Shown here: in pieces, positions 1,759 through 44,315 of the stretch
Layout: every line of letters begins with the position of its first letter
How positions within the stretch are numbered: the stretch's first letter is position 1
Assembly (NCBI GenBank): GCA_903896545.1
Contig: CAITYF010000151.1
Span: 42,272-106,271, forward strand
DNA from: an uncultured Myxococcales bacterium
Lineage (GTDB): Bacteria; Myxococcota_A; UBA9042
Length of the DNA: 64,000 bases
Direction of reading: 5' to 3'
The notes under the pieces: model-generated
The model's database searches: none
Seen by the model: only the letters and a program-made list of their open reading frames with translations
What the model was told of the DNA's origin: nothing
Position numbers and translations under genes: made by a program

Positions 1759-3558
1759 CTAATGAGCGCCGCGTCCAGACGGCTTGGCGTGCCAAATCCG
1801 CAGGCAAAGCAAAAAGCCAATGACGCCAAATGGAAACAGGAATAACGGCCAATATGTCCAGCTGCGGGTCGTCAGCCAGCCCAGCGCGACGGATTGCAAG
1901 GCAGTGCCCAGGTAGACAAAGCCGTCGATGACGCCAACCGCGGTGCCGGCTCCCTGCTTGCCGCCAAAGTCCATCGTCGCGGTGCCTGATAGGACGCCGT
2001 GGACGCCGATGACCGACAAACTGACAAGGAATACCATCAGCCCAAGCCACAGCGCGGACATCGGCAATTGCGGCTGATCCTTGAGGATTCTCTTGTCGCC
2101 GGCGCGTTGAATCGGCGACGGATCGCGCAGTTGGATCGCCTGATCAACGCCCCCGCGGTGAATGCGCGCAGAAATCGTCGGCGCAAGCGCAGTGACCTTG
2201 CCAGTGGGCTTTTCACCCGTACACATGCACGTTTTTGCGTTCCAAACCGAGTCCTGACACGCAGGCTGCACGCAGGCCACGGCAGGCGTGACGTCGGCCC
2301 AGCCTTTGATCGGCTTTCCGGCGATTTCAAGGACTTCATCACCGGGTTGCAAGCCGCTCTTCGGGTCGGCCACTGCGACAATGTTCGTCGGCGGCGCGAG
2401 CGTCAGCCACATGCCGATCGCCAGGATTCCCAGAAGGGCGTAGAGACCGCCTGCGACGGGTCCACGGCGACTCTGGAACAGCAGGTCGGACAGCCAGCCC
2501 GCAAGGTTGCCGCCAACGACGCCCGCGATGAAGAGCAAGCCGCCCCAACCGCCCTGGAAGAACGGCACGAGGACGACAAGGCTCGCGGTGACGACCAGCC
2601 AGCCCTTGATCTTGCCGCGGGCGCGGCTGGCGATGAGCGCCGTGACGGTTCCGAACGCAAAACTGGCGCCCAGAAGCGGCAAATTCGTCCAAGCGCCCAT
2701 CATGAGGACGTGATCCTTGGGCAGAATCCAGACCTCTTTGGCGTAGATTGGGAACCAGTGCATGATGCCGTTGCGCAGGACACCGGTGCAGAATTCGATG
2801 CCCGCAACCGTCATGATCACGGGATTGGTCAGGATGCGCTTGAGCAAGACGGCGGTGGGCACCGGTGCGTCGGACTCGCCCGATGAAGCATCGCCCGTAT
2901 CAAAGTCCAGATGACCGGTTTCACTCGGCTTGTCGCGCAGGAGCGCGATTTCAACGATGCCAAAGACAAGCAGAAGCAGTGCGGGGCCAGCAAACACGAT
3001 CCACTGATTGCCGCCGCCGGGCCAGATCGCATTCGCGCCGTCGAGCAACCAGCCGTTGACGGTGAATGCGAGGAAAATACCTGACGAGATCATCGTGCCA
3101 AAAATGCCGGAGAAGCCGCCGCGTTCACCGACGTGAAACCAGTGGGCGTTGACCTTGACGATCGAAACAGCGCCAAAACTTTGGAAATACATGTTGACGG
3201 CGTAGAGAACGCTCAGCCAAAACGTGATGTGCTGAAAATGGCCGGTCGTCATGCTGTAGACGAAGAAGCCGATGGCGAGGTTGGCCAGCGCACTGCCAAA
3301 AGCAGCGGCGAGGATGCCTTTGCGGCCGCCCAGTCGGTCGACCAGCGGCCCGTTGAACAGAAACGAAATCGCGTAGACGAGCGTGCCGGCGCCAAAGATG
3401 TAGCCGAAGTCTTCTTTGGTGATGCGCTCACCCAGCGAGGTCTTGGCGACCGTCAGGTTGTAGCGCGCCATGTACAGAAGCGCATACGTGAGGCCCATCG
3501 GGAACCAGTTCCAGAAGCGTCGAACGCGAAATGCCTGGCTGTGCTGTGGGACGGTCAT
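1759..3558 (-). CDS. MFS transporter of the organophosphate:Pi antiporter (GlpT/UhpC) type, with a ~110-aa inserted PDZ-like/Cys4 module
   Basis: N-terminal region RRFWNWFPMGLTYALLYMARYNLTVA is typical of GlpT/UhpC, and the protein has about 12 hydrophobic helices. An insert between C-terminal helices reads SGLQPGDEVLEIAGKPIKGW...ACVQPACQDSVWNAKTCMCTGE. I place the start at M19 (MTVPQ) of the ORF. Confidence 0.8.
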   Translation of the reverse strand: MTVPQHSQAFRVRRFWNWFPMGLTYALLYMARYNLTVAKTSLGERITKEDFGYIFGAGTLVYAISFLFNGPLVDRLGGRKGILAAAFGSALANLAIGFFVYSMTTGHFQHITFWLSVLYAVNMYFQSFGAVSIVKVNAHWFHVGERGGFSGIFGTMISSGIFLAFTVNGWLLDGANAIWPGGGNQWIVFAGPALLLLVFGIVEIALLRDKPSETGHLDFDTGDASSGESDAPVPTAVLLKRILTNPVIMTVAGIEFCTGVLRNGIMHWFPIYAKEVWILPKDHVLMMGAWTNLPLLGASFAFGTVTALIASRARGKIKGWLVVTASLVVLVPFFQGGWGGLLFIAGVVGGNLAGWLSDLLFQSRRGPVAGGLYALLGILAIGMWLTLAPPTNIVAVADPKSGLQPGDEVLEIAGKPIKGWADVTPAVACVQPACQDSVWNAKTCMCTGEKPTGKVTALAPTISARIHRGGVDQAIQLRDPSPIQRAGDKRILKDQPQLPMSALWLGLMVFLVSLSVIGVHGVLSGTATMDFGGKQGAGTAVGVIDGFVYLGTALQSVALGWLTTRSWTYWPLFLFPFGVIGFLLCLRIWHAKPSGRGAH

Positions 3559-3691
3559 GCGCGGAGCCTCGGTGGCGAAGTGCCGCGTCGATTCTTGGCA
3601 TGAAGTGGCCAAAGCGCAACTGCCTCGCGCGCAAAGCCCGTGCGACAGAAATGTGACAGATTGGCGACAATTTGCTACTTTGGACTCCCTG

Positions 3692-5224
3692 ATGACCCAC
3701 CTGCAACACCCTGAACTTCTTACAAATCCCGACGCGCCGCCGCTGCAACTTCGCGTTGCCGCACACGATCAGTCGCGCGTGGAGTGGATTTGCACCGTGC
3801 CGATGGCGCCGCCGGGTGTGACGCAGAACTACCAGGTGACGTTTGAGTTCGAAATTCCCGACGCGATTTGGGTGCCACACGATCCGTGGAAGCGGTACCA
3901 AGTGCGAACCCGGCTGACGAGCCCGAAGTGGCAGATCAACGCCCGTCGGCCGGACGCGCCCGATCCGCGCGATCGCTTGCGTCTGCAGGCGCTGTCGGTG
4001 GCGCATGCGTTGCGGGTCGCGGGGCGACTGCCCGTCACGACGCTTCTCGCAGCGCAGCGCCGCGACGGCGTGTTGCAGACGGAAGAAGCGCAGCGCGCGA
4101 TCGAAGCGCTACACCTCGCGCTTCTGCCGGCGCAAGAGCACCGCAAACTCTTGGCGGAGATTGCCCCTACTGCGGACGCGTCGCTTCAGCGCGAGCAACT
4201 GCTGGCCGATGAGTACGTGTCGGGCCACGTTCTGCTGCTGCTGACACGGGTGCGCGCGGCGCTGCAGGCACGCCATACCCGCAAGGCGAGGCTTCTGGCT
4301 GGCGATGTCCAGCCGGTGATGGATGCGCTCGCCGCAGCGCTGGCCGCCGAGCATGCCCACCGCACCGAACGGCAGATGCGGCAGCCCGCGCCGCACACTG
4401 TGGCTGAAGTCGAAGCGTACGTGAACCGCGCGGCGCAGCTGAAAAAACACTTCCAGCAAGCGCTTTTCTTGGACGCGACGGCCTTTATGCTGGACGAGCG
4501 CCTGCGCAACTGGATCGCCGCGACGATGGCGATGGTGGCGGCGGTCTTTTACTTTGCCTGGCAGATTTCAGTGCTGAACGCCGTGACCACGGGTGCGACG
4601 ACGGTGTCGCTCGCGCTGGCAGCGCTGGTCGGCGCGCTTGTGTACGCGGCGAAGGATCGGATCAAAGAAGTGGGACGCTCGTGGCTGGCGGAGAAGCTCA
4701 AGCACACGTATGCCGATCGCATCGCGCGCTTGCGGCTGCAAGAACGGATGGACCCGCAGCGCAGCGAGTTCGTTCTGGCGCGCGAGACCATCACGATGCA
4801 CAAGTATCTGGAGCCGGATCGTTTCAACCCGGAGTTGGGGCGGACCACGCCGGTGCACCGCCTCCGGATCCGCGAGCGGCTGCGCCACACCGGGCTGGCA
4901 CAGCTGCAGGCGCAGGGGCTGCTCGGCTTGAAGCACGTGTTCCGATACGACCTCTCGCCCCTGCTGGCCAAGTTGGACGATCACGAAAAGCACGTGCCTG
5001 TCGCGGGGCCGCACGGCGTCACGTTGCGCGCAGGTTCGCGGGTGTACGTGTTGCCAGTCGTCGTGCGGCTCTCCCGCCAAGAGGCCGACGGCGATCGCGA
5101 ATTGCTGTGTCAGCGCGGGCACTTGCTGCTGCGCGGACGGCAGCTGGTGCGCTTTTCACCCCACGTCGGGCCGGTGGATGGGGCGCGCACCACGCCAATG
5201 GTCGATGGACGGGAATTTGGCTGA
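3692..5224 (+). CDS. Hypothetical protein with a central pair of transmembrane helices
   Basis: The long ORF is trimmed to MTHLQHPELL (M75) so it does not overlap the convergent MFS gene. Central hydrophobic hairpin WIAATMAMVAAVFYFAWQISVLNAVTTGATTVSLALAALVGALVYAA. I recognise no family. Confidence 0.55.
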   Translation: MTHLQHPELLTNPDAPPLQLRVAAHDQSRVEWICTVPMAPPGVTQNYQVTFEFEIPDAIWVPHDPWKRYQVRTRLTSPKWQINARRPDAPDPRDRLRLQALSVAHALRVAGRLPVTTLLAAQRRDGVLQTEEAQRAIEALHLALLPAQEHRKLLAEIAPTADASLQREQLLADEYVSGHVLLLLTRVRAALQARHTRKARLLAGDVQPVMDALAAALAAEHAHRTERQMRQPAPHTVAEVEAYVNRAAQLKKHFQQALFLDATAFMLDERLRNWIAATMAMVAAVFYFAWQISVLNAVTTGATTVSLALAALVGALVYAAKDRIKEVGRSWLAEKLKHTYADRIARLRLQERMDPQRSEFVLARETITMHKYLEPDRFNPELGRTTPVHRLRIRERLRHTGLAQLQAQGLLGLKHVFRYDLSPLLAKLDDHEKHVPVAGPHGVTLRAGSRVYVLPVVVRLSRQEADGDRELLCQRGHLLLRGRQLVRFSPHVGPVDGARTTPMVDGREFG

Positions 5225-5269
5225 ACACGGCGGGTTATGGCACCCTCCAACGCCCAACGCGAGGAAGAC

Positions 5270-5605
5270 ATGCGAATCGTTGACAAACCCTGGGGCCACG
5301 AAGAGATCTGGGCGGAAACAGCGCGTTATGCTGGGAAATTCTTGATCATTTCTGCTGGTGAGATGCTGTCACGGCAGTACCACGAGAAGAAAGAAGAGAC
5401 GATCCACGTGCTCGACGGGGTGCTGATTTTGGAGATTGGCAAGGACCCGCCCCAGCGTCTGTTGCTGCAACCCGGTGAGACCTACCACGTGAAACCCGGC
5501 ACAATTCATCGCTTTTGCGCTGGAGAGACCGACGTGCGGCTCGTGGAAGTCAGCACGCCTGAGCTCGATGACGTCGTGCGCTTGGAAGACAAGTATGCGC
5601 GATGA
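5270..5605 (+). CDS. Cupin-domain protein (cupin_2, similar to the mannose-6-phosphate isomerase C-terminal domain)
   Basis: WGHEEIW...SRQYHEKKEETIHVLDGVLILEIG...PGETYHVKPGTIHRF is a cupin beta-barrel motif. GAGGAAG ribosome-binding site before ATG 5270. Confidence 0.7.
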   Translation: MRIVDKPWGHEEIWAETARYAGKFLIISAGEMLSRQYHEKKEETIHVLDGVLILEIGKDPPQRLLLQPGETYHVKPGTIHRFCAGETDVRLVEVSTPELDDVVRLEDKYAR

Positions 5606-5710
5606 TTCGACCGCTTGGATGCTTGTCGAGGGCACTTTCGCCAGCTAGACTCGCCCGAGGATGTTGGTTCGTCGGCGCTGTGCCGCAACCTTAGCTAGGA
5701 GCACACTTCG

Positions 5711-8700
5711 ATGCAGCAGCCGGCCGGTAGTGCAGCCCTGCCCATCGAGGCGGATATCGAGAAAATCTCAGCTGTTTTGCGCGAGGATATGACCGCGGCG
5801 GTGTTGGCTGAAATGGCCGAACGCCTGCTGCAGTTGTCGGCCGCGGAACTGCACCCGCGCCTGCGCGCAGCGCTTCTGGACCGCGCGGGCTCGCTCTGTG
5901 GACACGCCGACCCGGCACGAGCGCTCAGCTTGTGGCTTGAATCCTTTCGCCTTTTCCCCGATCCACCGGTAGGGCGTCGGCTTGCGGTTCTCGCTGCGGA
6001 CGATCCCAACTTCGCGCGGCTGAACCGACTCGGACATCTCGTCGATGCGATAGCGGAGCTCGCGCCACCCGCACAGCGCCCCGACGACTTGGCGGCCGCG
6101 GCGCAGTATCACATTCAACAGGGCCACGGCACTTCAGCGCAAGCAGCGCTGGCCAAGCTGGCGGAAATCGCGCCGCACCATCCGCAACTGCTGGAACTGT
6201 CCGATGTCGCACTGCAGCAGGCGGAATCCCGCGCCGACGCGCTACAGACGATGCGCTTTGAGTTGGCGAACGCGTCGGACGACGAGCGCGCGCGGTTGCT
6301 GATCGGCTACGCGGACATGCTGCTGCACGGCGATGAGCCGCTGAACGACGCTGCGGCAGTCCTTGCTGATGCTGTCGATGCCGGCGTTTCACCTGCGGAA
6401 ATTGCGCCGATGTGGGTTGAAGTGGCCCGGGCAATGGGCGACGGACCGCAGCTTGCCCGCGCGTTGGCGCTGGCGATTGGCGATGAATCGAATCCACTGC
6501 GCCTGCAATACGCCGATGAACTGACAAACTTGCCGGACATCGAGCGCACGGAGCCCTTGGCGGCAATCGCGGCGCTGCGCCTGCTCAACGCGGTGATGCC
6601 GGATGACGTTGCGCTTCAATCGCGCTTGGCGGTGACGGAAGCGTTCGCAGAAGGCGTGGGCGCGGAAGCGTCGCTGGAAGCCCTCCGCCTGAAGGCGATG
6701 CAGACGCGGGACCGCGTGCTGGAGTCGGCCGCGTGCCTCGCGCTGGCGCAGATCGCCCAGACGACCGGCGATCTGGAGAAGGCCGAGCGGCATTTCCGAC
6801 GCGTACGGAGCCTGTCGCCACAGAACCCGGAAGCGCTGGATTTCTTCGAGCAATGGTACCGGCGCGCTGGCGATCATCGGCGCCTCTTTGCCGCCTTGAC
6901 CCAGCGTGCAGCGCAAAGCGATGGCCGCGTCCTGGTGCGGATCGCGCTGGAGATGGCGCAGTTGGCGGAAGGCCCCTTGGCGGCGCTCGACCCGACGACC
7001 GCGACCGAGCGAGCGATCGAGGCGTACCAGCGCGTCCTCAGCGTGCAGCCCGACCACATGGACGCGATCGCCGCGTTGGAACGTCTGCTGACGGCAGGCG
7101 AACGCTGGCCAGAACTCGCGGCGCTGTTGGCCCGCAGCGCCCATGTTTTTGCACCACGCGCCGTCATCGACACCTCGGCGCGCGATTTTGCGATCGCAAT
7201 TTGGAATCGCCTGGCGGCGTTGAATTCGGACAAGACGCGACTGCCGGACACCGATGCGGCACTGGAAGCGCGGCTGCGGGTGTTGGATCTCGATCCGCGC
7301 AATCCTGACGCGCTGCAGGCGGTCGTTGCGACGCTGGAGAGCACGAACGATTGGAACGCCGTGCGGGACATGCTGCTGACCGCGGTGGAGGCGGCCGAGG
7401 ACCCGCACGAGCTCGCGTCTCTGTCGCAGCAGTTGGGCGAAGTCTACCGAACCCACCTGAACAATCCCGAAGAAGCAGCGACTTGGCTGGATCGCGCGGC
7501 GATGAGCGAACCCGATCGTGCCGATGCACGCTTGCAGGCGCAGGCGCTGTGGCGCGCGCGCGGCGATCGCGACCGGCTGCTCGACGCGTTGATGGCCGAT
7601 CTCCGCTCGCGGTGGGGCCGCCACCCGACCGAAGTCACGCTTCAAGAAGCGCTCGCGCTGACACCGGAATCCGAGCGTGAAACGGTCGGGGCGATCCTGG
7701 AAGAAGCCGCGCAGCTGGCAACAACTGCAGCTGGAAGCCCCTTCAGTCCGCAAACGCAGAGCTTCTTGGGTGCACTTTGGAGTCTGCTCGTCGCGCTGCA
7801 ACCCGGCCATCTGCACGCGCTCGACGCGCTGCACGCGCTGTGGGCTCAGAACAATTCCGGCCTGCTGGTTGATTTGCTGCAGACGCAAGCCGCGCTCCCC
7901 AACCTACCGGCATCGCGCAAGATCGCCGTGTTGGAGCGCCTTTGCCCGCTGCTGGCGAGCGCCGCCTCAAACGATCCGGAAACCGCACACGCCGCGCTGA
8001 CCGCTGCGGACCAACTCAGTGGTTTGGTGCCGGACGCGATGCTCGCACGGACGACGCGTCTGCACGCGCTTGTGGCCCTGGGTGACATTGCTGCGCTTCG
8101 TGCCACTTACGCACATGACGACGACGGTGCGGCCGCGTTTGCCGAGTCCGTTGCCGCAGTTGCCGAACAGAAGCCGTTGGAGGCGCGCGTTGGGCTGCTT
8201 CGGTCGGCAGCGGACGCGATCGCCGCGACGGGGCAAGCTGGACGCGCGACCGAACTTCTGGCAGATGCGCTGCACACCGCAGAGCAAATGGAAGCGTCGG
8301 ACGTGCGGCAGACGACCATCGTGGCGACGGCGGAAGCCCTGCTCACTGCCGCGCGTGACGCCGGTTTTGTCGGTCTGGAACGCCTCGCTGTAGAGACACT
8401 CGCCACGCACGCGCCGGTCGAGGACCTGCCGCGTTACAAGAAGATGCGCACGGCGCTGCTCGTTTCGGCCGGTCTCTGGTCCGACGCAACCGCCGCTGCC
8501 GCGGACTGGATCGAAGAACTTCTTGCCAATGGCGATTTTGCGGACCTTGCCGAGGCGATCGCCGAGTTGAACGAAGCCGCACGTCGAGCGGGTGAACTTG
8601 ACACGGTGCCGCACCGCTTGCTGGCATGGGCCGAAGTGGTCCCGCCGGAAAACGATGGACTCGCGCTGCGTGTGAAGCTGTGGTTGGACGCGGCGAACCA

Positions 8701-11700
8701 GCTGCTGTCCGCCGGCACCGATCTCGAAACCGCACGTCACGCGGTGGATTTGGCGACGGAAGCTGCGCCGAATTCGCCGGGCGTGCTGAATCTGCGCGAA
8801 CGCGTCTGCACCGAGCAAGCCGATTGGCCCGCCGTCGTCGCCACGCTGGAGCGCCTGGCTGAGTTGCAAAACGGCAATGAACGTCTCGACACGCTGCTGC
8901 GCGCTGCGAACCTGTGCGACCATGCGCTCACGGATCCCGCGACTGCCGCGCAATTGTACCGCCAAGTGCTGGAAGAGACGCCGGATGCCTTGGAAGCTTG
9001 GTATGGCCTTGCGGCGTCGCTGCGTAAAGCCGGAACGTTGGATGAACGGGCAGATGTGCTCGATTCTCTCTTGGCGCGCGACGATTTGAGCCGCGACTCA
9101 CGAGCCCGTTTGGCGCTGGAACGTGTCGAACTCGCGCACCAACGGACAGAGGCGGATCACGCAGCCCCGGCTTTTGCCGTGCTGGCGCGTTTGGCTGCGC
9201 TTCTGGAAGGCGACGCAACTGGTGTCCTCCCGCTGAACGATAGCGAGAATGGCCTCCTTGGCGTCGCGCTGACGCAACTGGACGACGAAGCCCACGCGGC
9301 ACAAACCGCGGAACTCTTGCTGCCGATCTTGCGCTCGCTGCGGAACGAGGACACGTCGGCGCAGCACGGACTGCTGCGGTGTCTGGACACGCTCGTCGCG
9401 ACACCGACGGCGACACCCGAAGCGCGCGAAGCGTGGCTGCGCGAAGCGGCTGATTGCGCGGTGAGTGACCCGAATCGCCGATACGCCGCGGTGCGAGCGC
9501 TTGTCGAACGCGCTCCGGACGTGCAGAACTTGGACGAACTCTCCGCGCTCGCCGCTGCCGCGGGTACGGACGCAGAATGCAATGCGTTGCTGACGACGAT
9601 TGCGACGGTGACGCAGGCGACTGAACTACGCACGCACGCCGCGCGTCTCCTCGCAAACCGGGGCAAGACCGCACGTGACACGGCACAGACAATTTCAGGC
9701 TGGACGCTGGCGCACGAGATCGAACCGGAGAATCCGGAACCGCTGGTGCAGTTGGCGGCGATGTATGCGGAAGTCGGCGATAACGACGGTTTGGCCTTTG
9801 CCCTCAGGCAGCAGACAACGCTTGGGGACGAGAACGCGCGCATTCAAGCGTGGACTCAACTGGCAACGTTGAAGCTCGATACGCAGCGGGATGCCCAAGG
9901 CGCGGCGATTGCGACGCAAGAAGCGCTCGCCCTGCACCCGAACGACGAACGCCTGTGGTCGCTGCACCTGCGTGCGCTTCGGGAGGCATCCGACGCGACC
10001 TCTCTCCTCAATGGGTTGCGGGCGCGACTCGGTCAGAGCGGCCTGTTGGAAGAAACCCGGCTGAGCTTGCAGCGCGAAATTGCCTGCCTCTATGACGATG
10101 CCGGCGACCACGCTGCCGCGCTGAGTGTGTGGCTCAAGCTCGCTTGCGACGATCCCAACGACGAAGATGCAACGGGACGGGCGACCGCGAACGTGTTGCA
10201 GCTGGCAACGGACGGCCTCTCTGATGACCTGGCAAGTGCGGCGCGCGCCCTGACGGACGTGCTCGATCTGCGCGGCGATCAGGAACGGCTGACTGCGGTG
10301 TTGAATTTGCGCCTCGCGCACGCGGTGGGAGAGGAGAGAGGTGCGCTCCTCGAACGTCTTGTCTCTCTGCGTGAGGAAGGCGATGACCCCGCTGGTGCCT
10401 TTGACGCCGCGGCGACGCTTTTTGTGACGCAGCCCGATGCGCCCAATGCCCTCGTGCGCTTGGCGCGCTTGGCCGAAGCTGCCGGGGTTCCGCGCGATCG
10501 TTTGGCTGCAACCTTGTTGTCGGGCATCGATGCCGCGACGCTGACCACGCGACAGGCGTTGCGCGAGGCGGCTTTGGGCGCGTTGGCTGACGACGAGTCG
10601 ACGTTGACCGTCCGCCGTGGCCTTGCTGAGGCCGCGTTAACGGACAGCCCGGACGACGCACTTTGGCTGCAGCGCGCTGACACGTGGGCGCACGATTCTG
10701 ACGACGATGGCGCTCGCCTTCATCTCCTTGCCCGTCGCGTTGCGTTGGCGGCCGACGACGCCACGCGTTTGGCGCTGCAACAGGAACGCGCACGCTTGGC
10801 GGACCGTTTGGGGGATCTCGCGGCGGCGCAAACGGCGTGGACGGACGTACTCCACCATGATGACCCAGATGCGCGACGGGAAGCCGCCGCATCGTTGGGC
10901 GACGTCAGCGAGCGTCTGGGCGACCACGCCACCGAGTCCAAAGCGTGGGTTGCGCTGCGTGCCGACACAGAAGACGCCGACGCACGCCTGGCCCTGAGCT
11001 TGAAGGCCGCGCATGCCGCACAAGTTGCAGGGAATCAAGCAGAGGCGCTGGCGATCCTGGAGACCGAGGCGCTCGACCATCCGCACGACACGACGCTCTA
11101 TCACGCGATCGCGGCGCTTCTGCCCGACGGAGAGAGGAAGACGCAGCATCTCGCGTTCGGTTGGCAGCAAATCCTCGCAGATGACTCCGAACGTCTGACG
11201 GCTGCCGACGCTTGGCTGTCCTCTCATGGAGACGACGACGCGGGAGCAGCATGGCAGCGTTTGACGCAGGTTCTGGATGTCGGCCTGAGGGGAGATGATC
11301 TCATCGCGCGCTTGGCACAGCTTGCCACTGCAAGCGATGATACAGTGGCCATTGCCGCTGGAACACGTCTGGCAAACCACGCGGCAACTGCACAGGACAT
11401 CCCCGCCGAAATCGCCGCACGACAAGCACTCCTCTCACGGCTGGATGGCCATGCGGCTCAAGCAGAGCGCCGCGTCCTTGCCGCGCTTCTGGAGCAGGCC
11501 GGGGAATACGACGACGCCTGCGCGCACCTGCGCGTTAGTCTCGCGGAGTCGTGGGATCGGAGCGTCGCGGAGCACGCGCTCGCGCTGGCGTCGCAGAGCG
11601 CGATCGCCGAGACAGTCGCGGAGGAAGTGGCCGTTGCTGCTGCTCAGGGCGTTGCGGTCGCGGATCTGACGGAGATTCAGGAGTTCACGGGAACGGCAGC

Positions 11701-14700
11701 GCTGGCCGAGGTTGCCGCACGGCACCTCCTGACCCGCTTGGAGCACACAGGCGAGGCGTCCGACCAAGCGGCGCTTTTGCACCTCCTCCTCGCGTTGGCA
11801 CACCAGCACGGTCTTTCGCAGTTGCGCGAGCACACCGTGGACGTCGTTTCGACGAACCCGCAGCTGGCAGCGATTCTGTCCCACGCACAGGGCGATCCCC
11901 TCGTGGCCCCTCTGCGTTTGCGCGCGGCGGAACAGGCGGTCCAAAACGCCGGTCCTGAGGGACGTACTGCGGCCACTCGCCAGCTCGCGGAGCTGCGCGC
12001 GTCGGTTGCAGGTGACGTCGTTGGCGCGCTCGAATTGCTGCTGCAGCGCGCGCCCGATAGCGATCCCCTCGCGGCGCTTCGCGACGCACAGTCGTTGGCT
12101 GCAGCGCATGGCCGTTTGGACTTGTGGCTGGACGCCGCCGAAAATCTGCTGATGGACGCCGACCTTGCCGGGGAGCAGCGCACCCAAGCAGCGACGCTCG
12201 CTGCAGAGGTCGCGGTCATTCAGGGCCTGCCGGCACGTGCCGCGGCACTTTGGCAGCTCGTCTGGGACGACGATCCCGATAGCGCCGTCGCCCGCGAGCA
12301 GGTGCTGAATCACAGCCGTCGGGCCGGCGATCCGGCGCCGCTCGCGACCGCCATCGAACGCGCGATGTTGCTGGGCGGTGACGTCGATCGCGGGGCTTTG
12401 CGCGTTGAACTGGCCGACCTGAAACGGCAACTCGGCAAGTCGCGAGAGGCGCTCCGCCTGCTACAGGACACTGTCGCCAGCGATCCGGACCGGCGCGATG
12501 TCATTCGCGTCGCCGAGGGATTGCTCCACGATCCACAGCTGCTCGATGAGACGCTCGAATTGTTGGAACGGCAGTATCGGCACCACGAGCAGTGGCCGCA
12601 GTTGGCGAGCGTGTTGCAACAGCGAATGGAAAGGACGCACCGGCCGACCTCCCGCGTGGTGTTGGCACAGGCCCTGGCGACCGTGCAACAGCAGCATGGC
12701 GACGTTGCGAGTGCGGTTGCTGCGCTCATGACGGCGCTGCGTGCAGCACCTTCGATGGACGGGCTGGCGGCCATCGAGCGCTTGTGTGACGCGCAGGCGC
12801 TTCCGGAAGCACTCGTGGAAGCCTACGCGCTGATGCAGAGCGAAGAACTGTCCTCCGAGCAGCGGGAAACCGTCCTGCGCCACGCGATCGCGTTTGATTT
12901 GGCACGCGGGGCGACGGACCACGCGGAAGCGGCGCTGATTGCCCTCATCCAACTGCGTCCAGAAGACGACACTGCGTTCGGCCAGTTGAGTGATCTACTT
13001 GGCTCCATCGACCGACGTGAAGACCTGATGGCGGCTTGGCAAGCGCGCATCGCAGCCACGCCGACTCCCGCACGTCGGCGCGAGGGATTGCGCGAGATCG
13101 CGGGGCTCGCCCGCGCCCTGGGCCACACGGATGTGGCGATCGACGCCGCGCAAACGTGGAGTGATCTCGACCCGGACGAGCCAGCGGCGCTCGAAGTCTG
13201 GGCTGATCTGCTGCGGGAGTTGGACCGCCCGGCTGAGCTTGCCGGCGTCCTTGTGCAGCTCGCACAAGTCACAGCTGAACCCGCCGATCGTGCGCGACTC
13301 CTCATTGAAACAGCACGTCAGCACGAACACTTGGGCGACATCGATGCGCAGCAGGCTTCCTATGAGGGGGCTTTTGACGCGGATCCGACCAACGATGAAT
13401 CGTTCGTTTTCCTGGAGCGCAAGGCGGGAGCCGACCCGGAGCGGCTCATTCCTCTCTTCTCTCGCCGCAGCGAGACGTTGGCTTCAGGCCCCTCACGCAC
13501 GTTGATGCTGCGCAAGCTCGCGAACGCGGCCGCGGAGTTGAACGATGGCACGACGGCCTGCCGGGCTCTGGAAACGGCCATCGCCGATGATCCGAGCAAC
13601 ACGGCGGTTCTCGATGAACTGCTGCGCATCGCCGAACAGCAACACGAGTGGGAAATCTGGCTGCAGACCGCACAGAAGCGTTTGGCGGTCGAAACCCGCA
13701 AGGAAGGCAAGGCGAATCTGCGGCGCCAGATGGCACGTGTGACGCTGACGGATCAGATTGACCCCGTTGCCGCGGCAGAGCACATCGCGGCGCTGGAGAA
13801 GTTGGCTCCTGACGACGCAAGCGTGGCGCAGTTCAAGACGATGTTGCAAGCACGCAGCGCGGATCCGCGGGAAGCGGCGGCGGGACTGGAAGCGCTGCTG
13901 AAGGACGCGACCGATACGGCGACGCAGACCTCTCTCCACCAGCAACTGGCGGACCTGTACGGCGGTCCACTGGACAATCCCGGCAAGGCGATTCGCGAGT
14001 TGGTACGCCTCGTTCAGTTGGATCCCCGGCGCTGGAGCGCGCGGCGCCGTTTGTGCGACCTCTACAAGGCTCGCGGGTCGATGGAAGCGTACGCGGAGTC
14101 GCTGCGGCAGTGGCTGCAGACGCTAGGGGATAGCCGCGATGCCAATACGCTGAGCCCGGAGCGTCTCGCGCAGTTGGGTGCGCTGCAGTTGGAACTGGGA
14201 GAGGCTCTCGCCGCCGTCGGGCAGGTCGCCGAAGCAGCCAACGTACTGAAAGACGCGTTGATTCTGAACGGCCATAGCGTGCGCCTCGATGGCATTCTGG
14301 CGCAGATGTTGGAAGCGACGAGCGACACGGCCGGTGCGGCGGAACTGGAAGACTGGCTGGTCGGCCACCACGCGCTTGGCGACAGGGAGCAGATGGCGAC
14401 CCACGCGCAGAAGGCCGCTCAATTGTGGGAACAGCTTGGCGACCATGCGAAGGCACGTGACGCGTGGCGGCGTGTGCTGGAAGTTCGTGTCGATGAACCC
14501 GTCGCGATGCTGGGGCAAGGCCGCGCGTGTCTGGACTTGGGCGACACAGACCGCGCGCTGCGGCTTTTTGACGCAGTGTCGCGCAACACCAAAGCGTCGC
14601 CCAAGCTGCGAGCGGACGCGCTTGTGGGTATGGGGCGCTGCCGGATGAGCCGCCTCGCGCTGGACCAGGCGCGCAACTGTTATGAGCGCGCTTTGCAGTT

Positions 14701-14746
14701 GGTGCCGGGTCACCGCGGCGCACTCGACGGGCTGTCTGAGTTGTAG
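5711..14746 (+). CDS. Giant (3011 aa) all-alpha TPR-like helical-repeat protein
   Basis: Single uninterrupted ORF, Ala/Leu/Asp/Arg/Glu-rich. Recurrent TPR-like units such as EAWYGLAASLRKAGTLDERADVLDSLL, and a C-terminal ARDAWRRVLEV...ALRLFDAVS...ARNCYERALQLVPGHRGALDGL. No Walker A motif, catalytic motif or transmembrane segment seen. GC3 is high in this frame. Confidence 0.85.
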   Translation: MQQPAGSAALPIEADIEKISAVLREDMTAAVLAEMAERLLQLSAAELHPRLRAALLDRAGSLCGHADPARALSLWLESFRLFPDPPVGRRLAVLAADDPNFARLNRLGHLVDAIAELAPPAQRPDDLAAAAQYHIQQGHGTSAQAALAKLAEIAPHHPQLLELSDVALQQAESRADALQTMRFELANASDDERARLLIGYADMLLHGDEPLNDAAAVLADAVDAGVSPAEIAPMWVEVARAMGDGPQLARALALAIGDESNPLRLQYADELTNLPDIERTEPLAAIAALRLLNAVMPDDVALQSRLAVTEAFAEGVGAEASLEALRLKAMQTRDRVLESAACLALAQIAQTTGDLEKAERHFRRVRSLSPQNPEALDFFEQWYRRAGDHRRLFAALTQRAAQSDGRVLVRIALEMAQLAEGPLAALDPTTATERAIEAYQRVLSVQPDHMDAIAALERLLTAGERWPELAALLARSAHVFAPRAVIDTSARDFAIAIWNRLAALNSDKTRLPDTDAALEARLRVLDLDPRNPDALQAVVATLESTNDWNAVRDMLLTAVEAAEDPHELASLSQQLGEVYRTHLNNPEEAATWLDRAAMSEPDRADARLQAQALWRARGDRDRLLDALMADLRSRWGRHPTEVTLQEALALTPESERETVGAILEEAAQLATTAAGSPFSPQTQSFLGALWSLLVALQPGHLHALDALHALWAQNNSGLLVDLLQTQAALPNLPASRKIAVLERLCPLLASAASNDPETAHAALTAADQLSGLVPDAMLARTTRLHALVALGDIAALRATYAHDDDGAAAFAESVAAVAEQKPLEARVGLLRSAADAIAATGQAGRATELLADALHTAEQMEASDVRQTTIVATAEALLTAARDAGFVGLERLAVETLATHAPVEDLPRYKKMRTALLVSAGLWSDATAAAADWIEELLANGDFADLAEAIAELNEAARRAGELDTVPHRLLAWAEVVPPENDGLALRVKLWLDAANQLLSAGTDLETARHAVDLATEAAPNSPGVLNLRERVCTEQADWPAVVATLERLAELQNGNERLDTLLRAANLCDHALTDPATAAQLYRQVLEETPDALEAWYGLAASLRKAGTLDERADVLDSLLARDDLSRDSRARLALERVELAHQRTEADHAAPAFAVLARLAALLEGDATGVLPLNDSENGLLGVALTQLDDEAHAAQTAELLLPILRSLRNEDTSAQHGLLRCLDTLVATPTATPEAREAWLREAADCAVSDPNRRYAAVRALVERAPDVQNLDELSALAAAAGTDAECNALLTTIATVTQATELRTHAARLLANRGKTARDTAQTISGWTLAHEIEPENPEPLVQLAAMYAEVGDNDGLAFALRQQTTLGDENARIQAWTQLATLKLDTQRDAQGAAIATQEALALHPNDERLWSLHLRALREASDATSLLNGLRARLGQSGLLEETRLSLQREIACLYDDAGDHAAALSVWLKLACDDPNDEDATGRATANVLQLATDGLSDDLASAARALTDVLDLRGDQERLTAVLNLRLAHAVGEERGALLERLVSLREEGDDPAGAFDAAATLFVTQPDAPNALVRLARLAEAAGVPRDRLAATLLSGIDAATLTTRQALREAALGALADDESTLTVRRGLAEAALTDSPDDALWLQRADTWAHDSDDDGARLHLLARRVALAADDATRLALQQERARLADRLGDLAAAQTAWTDVLHHDDPDARREAAASLGDVSERLGDHATESKAWVALRADTEDADARLALSLKAAHAAQVAGNQAEALAILETEALDHPHDTTLYHAIAALLPDGERKTQHLAFGWQQILADDSERLTAADAWLSSHGDDDAGAAWQRLTQVLDVGLRGDDLIARLAQLATASDDTVAIAAGTRLANHAATAQDIPAEIAARQALLSRLDGHAAQAERRVLAALLEQAGEYDDACAHLRVSLAESWDRSVAEHALALASQSAIAETVAEEVAVAAAQGVAVADLTEIQEFTGTAALAEVAARHLLTRLEHTGEASDQAALLHLLLALAHQHGLSQLREHTVDVVSTNPQLAAILSHAQGDPLVAPLRLRAAEQAVQNAGPEGRTAATRQLAELRASVAGDVVGALELLLQRAPDSDPLAALRDAQSLAAAHGRLDLWLDAAENLLMDADLAGEQRTQAATLAAEVAVIQGLPARAAALWQLVWDDDPDSAVAREQVLNHSRRAGDPAPLATAIERAMLLGGDVDRGALRVELADLKRQLGKSREALRLLQDTVASDPDRRDVIRVAEGLLHDPQLLDETLELLERQYRHHEQWPQLASVLQQRMERTHRPTSRVVLAQALATVQQQHGDVASAVAALMTALRAAPSMDGLAAIERLCDAQALPEALVEAYALMQSEELSSEQRETVLRHAIAFDLARGATDHAEAALIALIQLRPEDDTAFGQLSDLLGSIDRREDLMAAWQARIAATPTPARRREGLREIAGLARALGHTDVAIDAAQTWSDLDPDEPAALEVWADLLRELDRPAELAGVLVQLAQVTAEPADRARLLIETARQHEHLGDIDAQQASYEGAFDADPTNDESFVFLERKAGADPERLIPLFSRRSETLASGPSRTLMLRKLANAAAELNDGTTACRALETAIADDPSNTAVLDELLRIAEQQHEWEIWLQTAQKRLAVETRKEGKANLRRQMARVTLTDQIDPVAAAEHIAALEKLAPDDASVAQFKTMLQARSADPREAAAGLEALLKDATDTATQTSLHQQLADLYGGPLDNPGKAIRELVRLVQLDPRRWSARRRLCDLYKARGSMEAYAESLRQWLQTLGDSRDANTLSPERLAQLGALQLELGEALAAVGQVAEAANVLKDALILNGHSVRLDGILAQMLEATSDTAGAAELEDWLVGHHALGDREQMATHAQKAAQLWEQLGDHAKARDAWRRVLEVRVDEPVAMLGQGRACLDLGDTDRALRLFDAVSRNTKASPKLRADALVGMGRCRMSRLALDQARNCYERALQLVPGHRGALDGLSEL

Positions 14747-14776: not shown

Positions 14777-15856
14777 ATGACTGAGAGCTCGATCGCGCAA
14801 TTGCAGCGGCCGGTTCGTGTCGCCATCGTCGGCGCAACGGGCTACGGCGGCGCGGAACTCATCCGCCAACTCGCACCGCGAACGGACATTCGCTTGACGC
14901 GTTTGATCGCCAAGGACGGCATCGGCAAACGCGTTGGCGACATTCACCTCTCCTTGGCAGCCCTCAAGCTGCCGCACACAATCGAAGACGCGGAGCCTGA
15001 GGCCGTTGCGCCAGACGCGGACGTTGTCTTCGTCGGCCTTCCACACCGCGTCAGCGCGCAGGTGGGCGCCAAGTACGCCGATCTCGGCTGCGCGGTCATC
15101 GACCTATCGGGCGACTATCGCCTGCGCGACTTGGCGGCGTACGAGCAGTTCTACGAGGCCCAGCACCCGCACCCGGAACGTCTTGGGACTTTCGTTTATG
15201 GGCTCCCAGAATTCCAACGCAAGGCCATCGCACAGTCGCGACGTGTGGCAAGTCCGGGGTGCTTCGCAACGACCATCGCTCTGGCGCTCTGGCCGTTGGC
15301 GCGCGCCGGGTTCCTCTCTGGGCGTGTACAAGTTTCGGCGATGACGGGGTCGTCGGGGTCGGGCGCGAACGCGCAGCCGGGAACACACCACCCGCTGCGG
15401 GCGCAAACGCTGCGTCCGTACAAGCCGCTTGGCCACCAGCATGTCCCAGAGATCGTGCAGACGCTGACAGACGAGGGCGCGCACGACCTCTCACTCGAAT
15501 TCGTGCCGGTTTCCGCGCCGCTGGTTCGCGGAATCCTCGCGACCTGCTTTGTGCAAGTGCCTGCTGAGGTCGACAGTGCCCGCCTGAAGCAGCTTCTCCA
15601 TGACGCCTACGACAAGGAACCGCTGATTCGCGTGCTCGACGGTCGTCTGCCTGAAGTCAACGCCGTGGCCGGCAGCATGTTCGTGGAGATCGCGGGGACG
15701 GCTGGCGAGGCACGCGATGGCAAGCGAACAGTCGTGTTGCACGCGGCGCTCGACAATCTGATCAAAGGCGGGGCTGGGCAAGCTGTCCAGTCGCTCAATG
15801 TGATGCTCGGCATCGATGAGTTTACGGGGCTCCTGCAGCCCGCGCAGTGGCCTTGA
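14777..15856 (+). CDS. argC: N-acetyl-gamma-glutamyl-phosphate reductase
   Basis: VAIVGATGYGGAELIRQL NAD(P)-binding N-terminus, active-site region SPGCFATT, and C-terminal DNLIKGGAGQAVQ. Confidence 0.85.
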   Translation: MTESSIAQLQRPVRVAIVGATGYGGAELIRQLAPRTDIRLTRLIAKDGIGKRVGDIHLSLAALKLPHTIEDAEPEAVAPDADVVFVGLPHRVSAQVGAKYADLGCAVIDLSGDYRLRDLAAYEQFYEAQHPHPERLGTFVYGLPEFQRKAIAQSRRVASPGCFATTIALALWPLARAGFLSGRVQVSAMTGSSGSGANAQPGTHHPLRAQTLRPYKPLGHQHVPEIVQTLTDEGAHDLSLEFVPVSAPLVRGILATCFVQVPAEVDSARLKQLLHDAYDKEPLIRVLDGRLPEVNAVAGSMFVEIAGTAGEARDGKRTVVLHAALDNLIKGGAGQAVQSLNVMLGIDEFTGLLQPAQWP

Positions 15857-15859
15857 GGG

Positions 15860-16699
15860 GTGACGACCATGCGGACGATTCTCGTCAAGGTGGGAGGAGA
15901 GACGCTGTTGGCCGCCGATGACCGTGCGCGACTTGCAGCGGATCTACAGCAGGTCGTCTCGGCAGACAAGGATCGCCGCCTGTGCGTCGTCCATGGCGCG
16001 GGGCCGCAGATCACCAAGCTGGGGGAGCGGCTTGGCCTGACGTCAACCTTCCGGGCGGGTCGGCGCGTGACGGATGAACCTATGTTGGATGCCGTCGCGA
16101 TGGCGATGTGTGGTCAAGTGGGGCCTGCGCTGTTGGCGTCCTGTTTGGCCGCAGGCTTGCCAGCCGTTTCGACTCCGGCGGCGTCCGGCGGCGTGGCCGT
16201 GGGGCAAAAACGTCCGCCAATGCCCGTGCCTGGTGAGGCGGATCCCGTCGACTATGGCCTCGTAGCCGACCTCGCAAGCGTCGACGGTCGGCTGCTTGAA
16301 GCGCTGTGGACCGCAGGTTTTGTGCCGTTGCTCTCCTCTCTGGTCAGCGATGCGTCGGGACATCTCCTGAATTTGAACGCAGATAGCCTCGTCACGGGAC
16401 TCACGAAGCAGTTGGCGTTTACCGACGTCGTGCTGGTCACCGGCGTGCCGGGGGTGTTCCGCGATTTGGCCGATCCGACGACGCACGTCCCAGAGTTGTG
16501 TGCCGGTGACATCGATGAACTGATCGCAGCCGGCGCGGTTCAGGGCGGCATGATAGTGAAGTTACAAGAGGTGCAAAGCATCCTCTCACGCGGCGCGCAA
16601 ACGGTGTGGATCGTGGGGTTCCGCGAACCAAACGCGATCGCCGATGCCCTGGCCGGGAATCCGGGCACGCGGACTCGGGTGCGCGCCAATACACGCTGA
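15860..16699 (+). CDS. argB: Acetylglutamate kinase (amino-acid kinase family)
   Basis: ILVKVGG, VVHGAGPQI, NLNAD and GMIVKL motifs. The start is probably the ATG at 15869, which follows a GAGGGG ribosome-binding site. Confidence 0.8.
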   Translation: MTTMRTILVKVGGETLLAADDRARLAADLQQVVSADKDRRLCVVHGAGPQITKLGERLGLTSTFRAGRRVTDEPMLDAVAMAMCGQVGPALLASCLAAGLPAVSTPAASGGVAVGQKRPPMPVPGEADPVDYGLVADLASVDGRLLEALWTAGFVPLLSSLVSDASGHLLNLNADSLVTGLTKQLAFTDVVLVTGVPGVFRDLADPTTHVPELCAGDIDELIAAGAVQGGMIVKLQEVQSILSRGAQTVWIVGFREPNAIADALAGNPGTRTRVRANTR

Positions 16700-21816: not shown

Positions 21817-21915
21817 GCGCGGCAGGGTAGCGGCGCACGAGGGACTGTGCAAATCTCCGCGCAAACGACGCGGCGCAAAAGACACGGATGTCGCGTCGGC
21901 GCAAGGAAGGTGAGC

Positions 21916-37458: not shown

Positions 37459-37770
37459 GGTCGACTCCTGCAAGGTGGCGATGTGTGTCGCCGTGGGTGG
37501 CCGTGTTTACGGCACGTGAAATGAACAGTGCAAACCCCTTGCCAAATCGATCAACAATCACAATTTACGCGCGATCTTCAATAGTTGAAATTTCACGCCG
37601 CAGAATCCTCGCGAATCCCTCGGCGCGGAAGTGACGCCAATGTCATGCCCAAACGCCGACTTTTCGCCGTGCTTCGTGCCAGAATGGCCATACGCTTGTG
37701 TGATCCAGATGTTAAGGACTGCAAATCGGCCTGACATTGCGATCACCCCGCCCGCGACGTGGGATCTCTG

Positions 37771-37799
37771 TTGACAACCTCGCGAAGAACCTTATTCTT
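37771..37799 (+). promoter_or_regulatory. Sigma-70-like promoter (TTGACA - 17 bp - TATTCT) for the downstream lipoprotein gene
   Basis: Canonical -35 hexamer at 37771-37776 and a -10-like hexamer at 37794-37799, with a 17-bp spacer. ATG at 37876. Confidence 0.4.
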
Positions 37800-37875
37800 T
37801 TGCGCGAACGGACAAGACACGATGCAGATTCGTGTGCACACTTGGCCGCACCTATTACCTGGAGGCAGTACGACA

Positions 37876-38706: not shown

Positions 38707-38734
38707 CCAGTACCTCAGCGTCTAACGCAGCGGA

Positions 38735-38771
38735 GGGCATCGTTGGCAACAACGGTGCCCTTCGTGTTTTT
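38735..38771 (+). terminator. Rho-independent terminator after the lipoprotein gene
   Basis: GGGCATCGTTG-gcaa-CAACGGTGCCC: an 11-bp stem with one G-U pair, followed by TTCGTGTTTTTG. Confidence 0.5.
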
Positions 38772-38819
38772 GCCCACCCGGGCGCGCAACGGCTGGACAT
38801 GCGCCAGAACCGCGTTAGC

Positions 38820-39632: not shown

Positions 39633-39653
39633 TTCGCCGGGCTACTGAGAACC

Positions 39654-44275: not shown

Positions 44276-44315
44276 CCCTAGCCTCTGTTCGCCGCAGTAC
44301 GGCGTGGGGATCCCG

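What the first reader, a model, noticed from the sequence alone, without database searches (positions are those of the whole stretch)
5711..14746. 3011-aa single-ORF helical-repeat (TPR-like) protein with no recognisable catalytic or NTPase domain
A 9 kb gene takes up 14% of the window. Its product looks like TPR/HEAT-like repeats from end to end. I saw no Walker A motif, no transmembrane helix, no signal peptide and no enzymatic motif. Bacterial proteins of this size are usually NRPS/PKS, adhesins or STAND NTPases. A purely solenoid cytoplasmic protein of 3000 aa is unusual and would presumably act as a scaffold. It sits co-directionally between a cupin/2-TM protein pair and argC-argB.
Basis: seen in the sequence. 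Interest (0 to 1): 0.5.

Follow-up and report, generated by a model that had tools for sequence, protein, structure and literature searches.

The report
Divergent GltI-like giant TPR scaffold protein
The 9-kb gene is real and encodes a 3011-residue all-helical repeat protein related to GltI/AgmK, the giant scaffold of the Myxococcus gliding machinery, but it forms a small separate branch in lake Myxococcota with its own front end and gene neighbourhood.

Summary
The ORF at 5711-14746 (+) is real, intact and under purifying selection (dN/dS about 0.14 against four relatives with 3009-3014 aa orthologues). AlphaFold2 models of residues 1-1200 and 2085-3011 (pLDDT 88 and 91) contain only helical hairpins. 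I found no Walker A motif, transmembrane segment, signal peptide or enzymatic domain.

It is not an oddity. More than 1500 giant acidic TPR proteins of Myxococcota share its repeat unit and C-terminal cap. One subgroup sits at the gltI position of gltD-E-F-G-like clusters. GltI/AgmK (3822 aa) is the published cytoplasmic scaffold of Myxococcus focal adhesions.

The window protein belongs to a third, divergent clade ("tier A"). About 25 species-level genomes carry it, all lake MAGs. Its N-terminal 333-aa module occurs in only 25 of 1.84 billion representative proteins, always at residue 1 of a giant. It lacks the C-terminal extension of the glt-linked subgroup. It is always flanked by cupin upstream and argC-argB downstream, never by glt genes.

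The best reading is a long multivalent cytoplasmic docking scaffold whose partners are not encoded nearby. Whether it serves gliding is open. Verdict: a new variant of a known kind, of modest interest.

The parts
5697..5701 (+). Shine-Dalgarno-like AGGAG, 9 nt upstream of the ATG
   Evidence: Read directly from the sequence.
5711..14746 (+). Giant TPR gene: 3011 codons plus stop. The product is acidic (net charge -178), with 20% Ala and 15.5% Leu.
   Evidence: Orthologues. dN/dS 0.13-0.15.
5711..6709 (+). Clade-specific N-terminal module (aa 1-333), about 18 helices, with many invariant residues across the clade
   Evidence: Alignment A3. A profile search of 1.84e9 representatives found only 25 hits, all starting at residue 1 of giants or fragments of them, and none in GltI-like subgroups. 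AF2 shows it all-helical. hhalign against the tier-B N-termini gives only an out-of-register match.
6728..7570 (+). First canonical TPR block (aa ~340-620). It carries the best Pfam TPR hit (340-372), has dN/dS 0.09, and matches the equivalent position (~300-640) of tier-B giants.
9311..11962 (+). Least conserved middle (aa 1201-2084). Its length varies among relatives, it contains degenerate super-repeat copies, and it was not modelled.
   Evidence: BLAST colinearity breaks here and total lengths range from 2399 to 3916 aa. dN/dS is 0.18-0.25. Self-hits are weak. Only faint TPR/PPR hits are found.
11963..14743 (+). Conserved C-terminal third (aa 2085-3011), 52 helices. It aligns end to end, in register, with the C-terminal ~930 aa of the other giant-TPR subgroups.
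   Evidence: AF2 pLDDT 91. hhalign probability 100%, E 6e-74 (B2) and 9e-65 (B1), with the in-register alignment scoring best.
12353..13405 (+). Best-preserved copy of the ~320-330 aa super-repeat (aa ~2215-2565) that is reiterated many times in tier-B giants
   Evidence: hmmsearch domain tables.
14168..14743 (+). C-terminal 'cap' (aa 2820-3011), the most constrained part (dN/dS 0.05). It contains the TPR_1 hit at 2968-3000.
   Evidence: The cap HMM hits 265 of 266 giants. The hit lies at the extreme C-terminus in tier A and B2, and 400-700 aa (in some more) before the end in B1.
5237..5605 (+). Small cupin gene (Cupin_2 / mannose-6-P isomerase C-terminal type), the invariant upstream neighbour
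   Evidence: Pfam. It is present directly upstream in 22 of 22 tier-A loci that reach that far, at 67-89% identity.
14777..16699 (+). argC (14777-15856) and argB (15860-16699), the invariant downstream neighbours. argC starts 30 nt after the giant's stop codon, so the three genes are probably co-transcribed.
   Evidence: Pfam. argC lies downstream in 25 of 25 tier-A loci. The gap is too short for a terminator; co-transcription is inference.
3692..5224 (+). Conserved 2-TM membrane protein of unknown function. It lies upstream in about half of the tier-A loci and is not always adjacent.

Best explanation
The gene encodes a cytoplasmic, strongly acidic, all-alpha TPR superhelix of roughly 165 helices. 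If it is as extended as the published GltI model, it is on the order of 80-90 nm long. It is a divergent third clade of the Myxococcota giant-TPR superfamily whose glt-cluster-linked subgroup corresponds to GltI/AgmK, the cytoplasmic scaffold of the Agl-Glt focal-adhesion gliding machinery. I propose that it works in the same way, as a long multivalent docking platform. The two strongly constrained ends would be the specific binding surfaces: the clade-specific N-terminal 333-aa module with the first TPR block, and the C-terminal ~900 aa with the cap. The poorly conserved middle, which varies in length, would be a spacer made of degenerate super-repeats. Shown here: the gene is real and under selection; 71% of the protein is an all-helical solenoid; it has no catalytic, NTPase, membrane or secretion features; its C-terminal third is homologous in register to the other giants; its N-module is unique; and its neighbourhood is invariant. 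Inferred: the scaffold function, the cytoplasmic location, the length, and the identity of subgroup B1 with GltI, which rests on gene order. The partners are unknown and are not encoded next to the gene. I put at most about 0.25 on this clade acting in gliding.
For: Real, selected gene. Helical solenoid only: AF2 (pLDDT 91 and 88, no strands) and Foldseek (only Ski3, IFT-A TTC21B, Ctr9 and OGT-TPR type scaffolds). No motifs, TM or signal peptide. Superfamily homology: 952 related proteins, mostly of 3300-4170 aa. Tier-B giants are built of ~320-330 aa super-repeats that match window aa ~2215-2565, plus a colinear C-terminal cap. Profile-profile alignment of the C-terminal 927 aa is end to end and in register (probability 100%, E 6e-74, 925 columns; shifted alternatives score 180 units lower). 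All subgroups are strongly acidic. Link to GltI: giants P0089, P0185 and P0240 lie directly after genes of 1034-1238 aa (TPR), 456-509 aa (TPR), 95-114 aa and 573-771 aa. The last of these carries an FHA domain in two of the three clusters (residues 27-91 in L034). That is the gltD-E-F-G(-H)-I order and sizes published for M. xanthus, Anaeromyxobacter and Sorangium (PMC3169522 Table 1 and Table S3). Published GltI function: gltI mutants are non-motile, GltI-YFP localises to focal adhesions, and the protein is proposed as a scaffold with several GltG-FHA docking sites (PMC4508894; PMC11761067). Distinct clade: the N-module profile finds only 25 of 1.84e9 representatives. An NJ tree of the cap region puts tier A outside B1+B2. 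Cupin-giant-argC-argB is invariant.
Against: No partner or complex is identified. There are no glt/agl genes in the 64-kb window or within 10 kb of any of 25 tier-A genes. The super-repeats that probably carry the multiple FHA docking sites in GltI are degenerate here, with self-hit scores of 5-28 bits, so multivalency may be reduced. The M. xanthus GltI sequence itself could not be obtained, so homology to it is indirect. Residues 1201-2084 were not modelled. Similarity among TPR proteins can be inflated by repeat composition; the in-register end-to-end alignment and the shared cap argue against that, but identities are only 19-23%.
Confidence: 0.6

Rival explanations
1. It is the functional GltI orthologue of this lineage. 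The Agl-Glt gliding machinery is encoded elsewhere in the genome, and this protein scaffolds it at focal adhesions. Only its gene has moved next to cupin/argCB, and its ends have diverged.
For: It belongs to the same superfamily and has an in-register C-terminal third. GltI-family genes are not always glt-linked: P0052 sits next to yceG/ruvX. No second giant was seen in the tier-A loci.
Against: It lacks the ~570-aa C-terminal extension found in all glt-linked giants examined. Its N-module is absent from every GltI-like protein. It branches outside both B1 and B2 and scores closer to the non-glt-linked B2. Its hosts are planktonic lake MAGs, where surface gliding is less obviously needed; this last point is inference. 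I could not check whether these genomes carry glt/agl genes or a B1-type giant.
Confidence: 0.2
2. It is a lineage-specific paralogue with a role unrelated to motility. It might, for example, organise another cytoplasmic assembly, possibly with the tightly linked, highly conserved cupin or the co-transcribed arginine-biosynthesis enzymes.
For: Cupin-giant-argC-argB is invariant across the whole clade even at 35% identity, and the cupin is better conserved than the giant. The gap to argC is 30 nt. The N-module is unique. There are no glt neighbours. The related B2 subgroup is also never glt-linked in the three contexts seen.
Against: Gene adjacency with argCB may be purely positional. No known TPR scaffold acts on arginine enzymes or cupins. 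No interaction evidence of any kind was obtained.
Confidence: 0.2
3. A catalytic or nucleotide-binding domain is hidden in the unmodelled middle third, so the protein is an enzyme or STAND-like switch and not a pure scaffold.
For: Residues 1201-2084 were not modelled because only two structure jobs were allowed.
Against: The composition there is the same as elsewhere: Ala 19-26%, Leu 13-18%, few Pro. There are no motifs. Pfam and PDB searches at E<=10 return only faint TPR/PPR hits. The region is the least conserved and varies in length among relatives, which is unlike a catalytic core. It weakly matches the TPR super-repeat profile.
Confidence: 0.03
4. The ORF is a pseudogene, an assembly chimera, or a chance open frame in GC-rich DNA.
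For: GC-rich genomes give long spurious ORFs, and many overlapping ORFs of 100-500 aa lie on the opposite strand. One related MAG has the gene split into 599 + 2408 aa.
Against: dN/dS is 0.13-0.15 with dS above 1. The gene is full length and colinear in more than 20 species-level genomes from independent assemblies. The start and the RBS are conserved.
Confidence: 0.01

Closest known systems
GltI / AgmK (MXAN_4863) of the Myxococcus xanthus Agl-Glt gliding (bacterial focal adhesion) machinery, represented here by the glt-cluster-linked giants P0089, P0185 and P0240 (subgroup B1)
   Same: Both are giant (3000-4200 aa), TPR-only and strongly acidic, with no signal peptide, TM helix or enzyme domain, and both are confined to Myxococcota. 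They share the ~320-330 aa super-repeat unit and the ~190-aa cap. The C-terminal ~920 aa align in register (E 9e-65).
   Different: Local identity is only 19-30%. There is no full-length colinearity. Tier A lacks the ~570-aa extension after the cap. It has a unique 333-aa N-module. Its internal super-repeats are degenerate. It is never next to gltD-G/J and always sits between cupin and argCB. It is shorter, at 3011 aa.
Unnamed ~3730-3750 aa giant TPR proteins of Polyangia / Sandaracinus-type MAGs (subgroup B2; e.g. P0041, P0072, P0073, P0091, P0108)
   Same: These give the best non-clade scores to the window protein. The cap is at the extreme C-terminus, as in tier A. The C-terminal 925 columns align in register (E 6e-74). 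They are not glt-linked in any of the three contexts seen. A class-IV aminotransferase gene lies nearby both in two B2 loci and in the window.
   Different: Their length is tightly fixed and their super-repeats are well preserved. They have no tier-A N-module and a different neighbourhood. Their function is unknown as well, so the comparison does not transfer a mechanism.
Eukaryotic long TPR scaffolds: Ski3 (4buj_B), IFT-A TTC21B/IFT139 (8bbg_D), Ctr9 (6af0_A) and the OGT TPR domain (1w3b_A)
   Same: These are the best Foldseek matches of both AF2 models (E 1e-14 to 1e-16). They are continuous TPR superhelices that hold multi-protein complexes together.
   Different: Identity is 11-17% and TM-scores are 0.1-0.2, so the resemblance is in fold class only and there is no evidence of common descent. 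They are two to three times shorter.

Membership tests
GltI/AgmK (Agl-Glt gliding machinery) | Giant (>3000 aa) cytosolic protein made only of TPR-type repeats, with no signal peptide or TM helix, in Myxococcota | tested here: met
   for the protein. for the taxonomy given in the record titles. Definition from PMC4508894 and PMC11761067.
GltI/AgmK (Agl-Glt gliding machinery) | Encoded in or next to the G1 glt cluster (gltD-E-F-G-H-I-J) | tested here: not met
   No FHA/TonB, GltD/E/F/H-like or Agl genes are present in the 64-kb window or within 10 kb of 25 tier-A genes. The neighbours are cupin and argCB in every locus.
GltI/AgmK (Agl-Glt gliding machinery) | Full-length colinear sequence similarity to glt-linked giants, used as a proxy for MXAN_4863 | tested here: not met
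   B1 and B2 giants align with each other over 3200-3600 aa. The window protein shares only the first TPR block, repeat-level matches and the C-terminal ~920 aa. It branches outside B1+B2.
GltI/AgmK (Agl-Glt gliding machinery) | [quoted passage not shown] | tested here: not met
   The cap ends at the last residue in tier A, whereas it lies 400-700 aa (in some more) before the end in B1. Equating this extension with the published GltI C-terminal domain is my inference.
GltI/AgmK (Agl-Glt gliding machinery) | Direct orthology to MXAN_4863, binding of GltG-FHA / GltJ-GYF, localisation to focal adhesions, and requirement for gliding | not testable with these tools
The functional features need experiments.
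Myxococcota giant-TPR superfamily (GltI-like, defined here) | The ~190-aa C-terminal cap plus the ~320-330 aa TPR super-repeat unit, in an acidic protein of more than 2300 aa | tested here: met
   The cap HMM hits 265 of 266 giants, including this one at 277 bits. The super-repeat copy lies at aa ~2215-2565. hhalign is in register at probability 100%. Net charge is -5.9 per 100 aa against -5.6 to -13.8 in the others.
TPR repeat clan (Pfam TPR_1/2/8/14/16) | Significant matches to TPR profiles and a helix-turn-helix repeat structure | tested here: met
   TPR_2 E 8e-18, TPR_1 E 2e-12, TPR_8, TPR_14. The AF2 models are helical hairpins throughout.
STAND NTPase with TPR sensor / NRPS-PKS / adhesin (the usual giant bacterial proteins) | P-loop NTPase (Walker A/B) domain; condensation, adenylation or KS domains; or a signal peptide with beta-rich repeats | tested here: not met
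   No Walker A motif. No such Pfam or NCBIfam families at E<=1. No beta strands in 2127 modelled residues.

The most novel reading that the evidence does not exclude
Tier A is not a gliding component. It would be a separate giant cytoplasmic scaffold or 'ruler' that evolved from a GltI-like ancestor in planktonic freshwater Myxococcota. It would use its unique 333-aa N-terminal module to recruit a different, still unknown assembly, perhaps involving the invariantly linked and highly conserved cupin. Together with the non-glt-linked B2 subgroup, this would mean that giant TPR solenoids are a general cytoplasmic organising device of Myxococcota and that the gliding scaffold GltI is only one specialisation of it.
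Probability: 0.15. Interest if true: 0.6.

Novelty: new variant of a known kind. Interest (0 to 1): 0.3.

Why it matters
GltI is the least understood part of the Myxococcus focal-adhesion machinery, and the published structural model could not resolve the cytoplasmic platform. This analysis shows that GltI belongs to a large superfamily with at least three deep branches, two of which (B2 and the tier-A clade found here) are not encoded with glt genes. That gives comparative handles. The cap and the super-repeat are the shared core. The C-terminal extension tracks glt linkage. The tier-A N-module marks a different partner. If tier-A genomes turn out to lack Agl-Glt, the protein would show that these giants have a role beyond gliding. 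Otherwise this is an ordinary though divergent family member.

Tried and rejected
1. I could not get the M. xanthus GltI sequence or a Myxococcus-named hit. Full-length P0089 as a query timed out twice. A 700-aa C-terminal query returned only fragments of 1218 aa or less. A 2800-aa query returned 120 giants whose few names were Bradymonadaceae/Bradymonadia, Polyangia, Myxococcales/Myxococcota, Deltaproteobacteria or Proteobacteria MAGs. The listing of cluster members gave no organism names.

2. My recollection that MXAN_4864/65 (agmV) might be yceG/ruvX, which would have matched the P0052 context, was wrong. The paper calls them probable pseudogenes.

3. The class-IV aminotransferase is shared between the window and B2 loci, but it is absent within 10 kb in most tier-A loci. 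I therefore did not use it as evidence of orthology.

4. I tested whether the upstream 510-aa protein could be a GltJ analogue. It has a 2-TM hairpin but no zinc ribbon or GYF-like features, and it is not always adjacent.

5. L029-L031, weak hits of the genome scan, encode shorter TPR proteins (1678-2475 aa) and were not pursued.

6. Looking for two B-type giants from one assembly, to prove B1/B2 paralogy, failed because P0240 and P0108 come from different assemblies.

7. The promoter/terminator scan, tRNA scan, Rfam scan, and tandem and direct DNA repeat searches found nothing relevant. The repeats are ancient and visible only at the protein level.

Full report
**Observation.** The window holds one uninterrupted ORF at 5711-14746 on the + strand, with an ATG start and 3011 codons. 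An AGGAG lies 9 nt upstream of the ATG. GC3 is 0.73, the same as in the flanking genes. The identical protein is on record, and four 71-75% identical full-length relatives exist. In four other species-level genomes the ORF is intact at 3009-3014 aa. Nei-Gojobori dN/dS against them is 0.13-0.15, with dS above 1. Constraint is strongest in the last 300 residues (0.05) and in residues 301-600 (0.09), and weakest in residues 1201-2100 (0.18-0.25). The gene is therefore real and selected. It is not a chance GC-rich ORF, a pseudogene or an assembly artefact.

**Composition and fold.** The product is 20% Ala and 15.5% Leu, with a net charge of -178. It has no Walker A, HExxH or GxSxG motif. No 19-residue window is more hydrophobic than 1.38 on the Kyte-Doolittle scale, and the N-terminus does not look like a signal peptide. 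Pfam and NCBIfam report only TPR-type families. AlphaFold2 with small family alignments gave confident models. Residues 2085-3011 have pLDDT 91 and form 52 helices. Residues 1-1200 have pLDDT 88 and form 66 helices. Neither model has a single strand. Foldseek against the PDB returned only long TPR scaffolds: Ski3, IFT-A TTC21B, Ctr9 and the OGT TPR domain. The middle, residues 1201-2084, was not modelled because only two structure jobs were allowed. It has the same composition as the rest, gives only faint TPR/PPR hits at E<=10, and weakly matches the family's repeat profile.

**Relatives fall into tiers.** The homologue search returned 952 proteins at E<=1e-5.
- Tier A (P0001-P0040, 2400-3916 aa) is colinear with the window protein over the N-terminal ~600-1950 residues and the C-terminal ~900 residues. 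The middle varies.
- Tier B consists of hundreds of 3300-4250 aa TPR proteins from MAGs named Myxococcales, Polyangiales, Sandaracinus, Bradymonadia or Deltaproteobacteria, at about 25% local identity.
- Profiles of the window protein's ends show that tier-B giants are built of a ~320-330 aa super-repeat. That repeat matches window residues ~2215-2565 many times over.
- Tier-B giants also carry a ~190-aa 'cap' that matches window residues 2820-3011.
- The cap HMM hits 265 of 266 giants in hand.
- Profile-profile alignment of the C-terminal 927 residues with the corresponding part of the tier-B subgroups runs end to end and in register. For subgroup B2 the probability is 100%, E is 6e-74 and 925 columns align. 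For subgroup B1 E is 9e-65. The in-register solution outscores shifted alternatives by 80-180 units.
- The first TPR block (residues ~340-620) matches the equivalent position in tier B.
- All subgroups are strongly acidic.

I conclude that this is true common descent of a giant architecture and not mere TPR resemblance.

[quoted passage not shown] An AlphaFold study models it as a ~1100 Å solenoid with six predicted GltG-FHA docking sites and proposes it as the cytoplasmic scaffold (PMC11761067). Its gene follows gltD-E-F-G-H in M. xanthus, Anaeromyxobacter, Stigmatella and Sorangium (PMC3169522 Table 1 and Table S3).

Three tier-B giants from independent genomes (P0089, P0185, P0240) lie directly after genes of 1034-1238 aa (TPR), 456-509 aa (TPR), 95-114 aa and 573-771 aa. 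The last of these has an N-terminal FHA domain in two of the three clusters, at residues 27-91 in L034, against 26-90 in GltG. A 180-307 aa gene follows. That is the published glt order and sizes. These giants have a 400-700 aa extension after the cap and form subgroup B1, which I equate with GltI by inference. I could not obtain the M. xanthus sequence itself.

A second subgroup, B2, has a tight length of 3727-3750 aa and the cap at the very C-terminus. It was not glt-linked in any of three contexts.

**What is particular to the window protein.**
- Tier A is monophyletic and branches outside B1+B2 in a neighbour-joining tree of the cap region.
- Its cap is terminal, as in B2, and it scores slightly closer to B2.
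- Its N-terminal 333 residues are highly conserved within the clade. A profile of them, run with HMMER against 1.84 billion representatives, found only 25 proteins, all starting at residue 1 of giants or fragments of them, and none from B1 or B2. hhalign against tier-B N-termini gives only an out-of-register helical match.
- Its own internal super-repeats are degenerate, and no DNA-level repeats remain.
- A scan of one genome per species (GTDB r232) found the clade in 23 loci, plus 3 weak outliers. All are MAGs from lakes (Baikal, Mendota, Erken, Zurich, Maggiore and others) titled Myxococcales/Myxococcota or a broader name (Deltaproteobacteria, Proteobacteria, Pseudomonadota), apart from a few obviously mislabelled records.
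- The small cupin gene lies directly upstream in 22 of 22 loci, at 67-89% identity, which is better conserved than the giant.
- argC-argB lies directly downstream in 25 of 25 loci. The gap to argC is 30 nt in the window, so co-transcription is likely (inference).
- No GltD/F/G/H-like gene occurs in the 64-kb window or within 10 kb of any tier-A gene.

**Mechanism.** The best-supported reading is that the protein works like GltI: an elongated, acidic, cytoplasmic TPR superhelix that docks several partners. Scaling the published GltI length gives roughly 85 nm, which is inference. The pattern of constraint suggests that the two ends carry the specific binding surfaces and that the variable middle is a spacer. 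The ends are the N-module with the first TPR block, and the last ~900 residues, especially the cap. The partners are unknown.

The protein fails three features of GltI membership that I could test: glt linkage, full-length colinearity with glt-linked giants, and the C-terminal extension. I therefore file it as a distinct clade of the GltI-like superfamily and not as GltI.

Two things remain open: whether it replaces GltI in these genomes, or is a paralogue with a non-motility role, possibly connected with the invariant cupin. Settling this needs the complete MAGs. A hidden domain in the unmodelled middle is unlikely (about 3%), and the artefact or pseudogene reading is excluded.

**Verdict.** Giant TPR-only proteins are a large family typical of Myxococcota, with an experimentally studied prototype. 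What is new is a small freshwater clade with its own N-terminal module and a fixed cupin/argCB neighbourhood. I rate it a new variant of a known kind, with interest about 0.3.

Noticed in passing
L011, L012, L023, L028 (genome contigs records CAMDBH01, CAYHHL01, CAYTLW01, CAZPHC01): Four lake MAG records that carry the tier-A giant gene with cupin and argCB are titled 'Klebsiella pneumoniae' or 'uncultured Enterobacteriaceae'. These are clearly wrong taxonomic labels in the public records.
   Followed up: partly
P0124 + P0125 (cluster of P0003), same 73,967-bp contig: In one related MAG the giant gene is called as two pieces of 599 and 2408 aa. This is either a frameshift or sequencing error, or a genuine disruption.
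   Followed up: no
L004/L005, L033, L038/L039 (B2) versus L034, L035, L036/L037 (B1): The giant-TPR superfamily has two further subgroups. B1 is glt-cluster-linked and has a 400-700 aa extension after the cap. B2 (~3730-3750 aa) has the cap at the C-terminus and was never glt-linked: it sits next to a class-IV aminotransferase, or next to ABC exporters and type-IV-pilus minor pilin genes. Both occur in MAGs named Polyangia/Polyangiales, so they may be paralogues. The function of B2 appears undescribed.
   Followed up: partly
window 5237-5605: The 111-122 aa cupin upstream of the giant is 67-89% identical across the whole clade, which is much better conserved than the giant (35-50% at the same distances). 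It is never separated from the giant. Its substrate or role is unknown.
   Followed up: partly
window 3470-5224 (probable true start 3692): This is a conserved hypothetical protein with a central 2-TM hairpin and no Pfam family. A homologue lies upstream of the giant in about half of the tier-A loci. The ORF as listed overlaps the 5' end of the divergent MFS gene (1759-3612, -), so the later start called in the public record (510 aa) is more likely.
   Followed up: partly
window 20620-23718 (-) and 20792-21424 (+): A 1032-aa minus-strand ORF overlaps plus-strand genes. The public gene call places a 376-aa Ser/Thr kinase at about 20620-21750 (-), followed by an FG-GAP/ASPIC protein at 21796-24204 (+). 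The long ORF is a GC-rich artefact beyond the kinase.
   Followed up: no
window 37759-42316 and 44304-45365, 53721-55370, 58355-59299: Several ORFs of 277-550 aa with high GC3 have no Pfam family; one has a weak AMIN domain. They lie between rpoD and an ECF sigma factor gene and further downstream, and were not examined further.
   Followed up: no
The search for homologous proteins behaviour: With a 700-aa query the search listed no protein longer than 1218 aa and did not return the 4166-aa source protein itself. With 2800-3011 aa queries it listed giants. Short queries therefore seem unable to retrieve much longer proteins, which limits domain-level searches of giant proteins.
   Followed up: no
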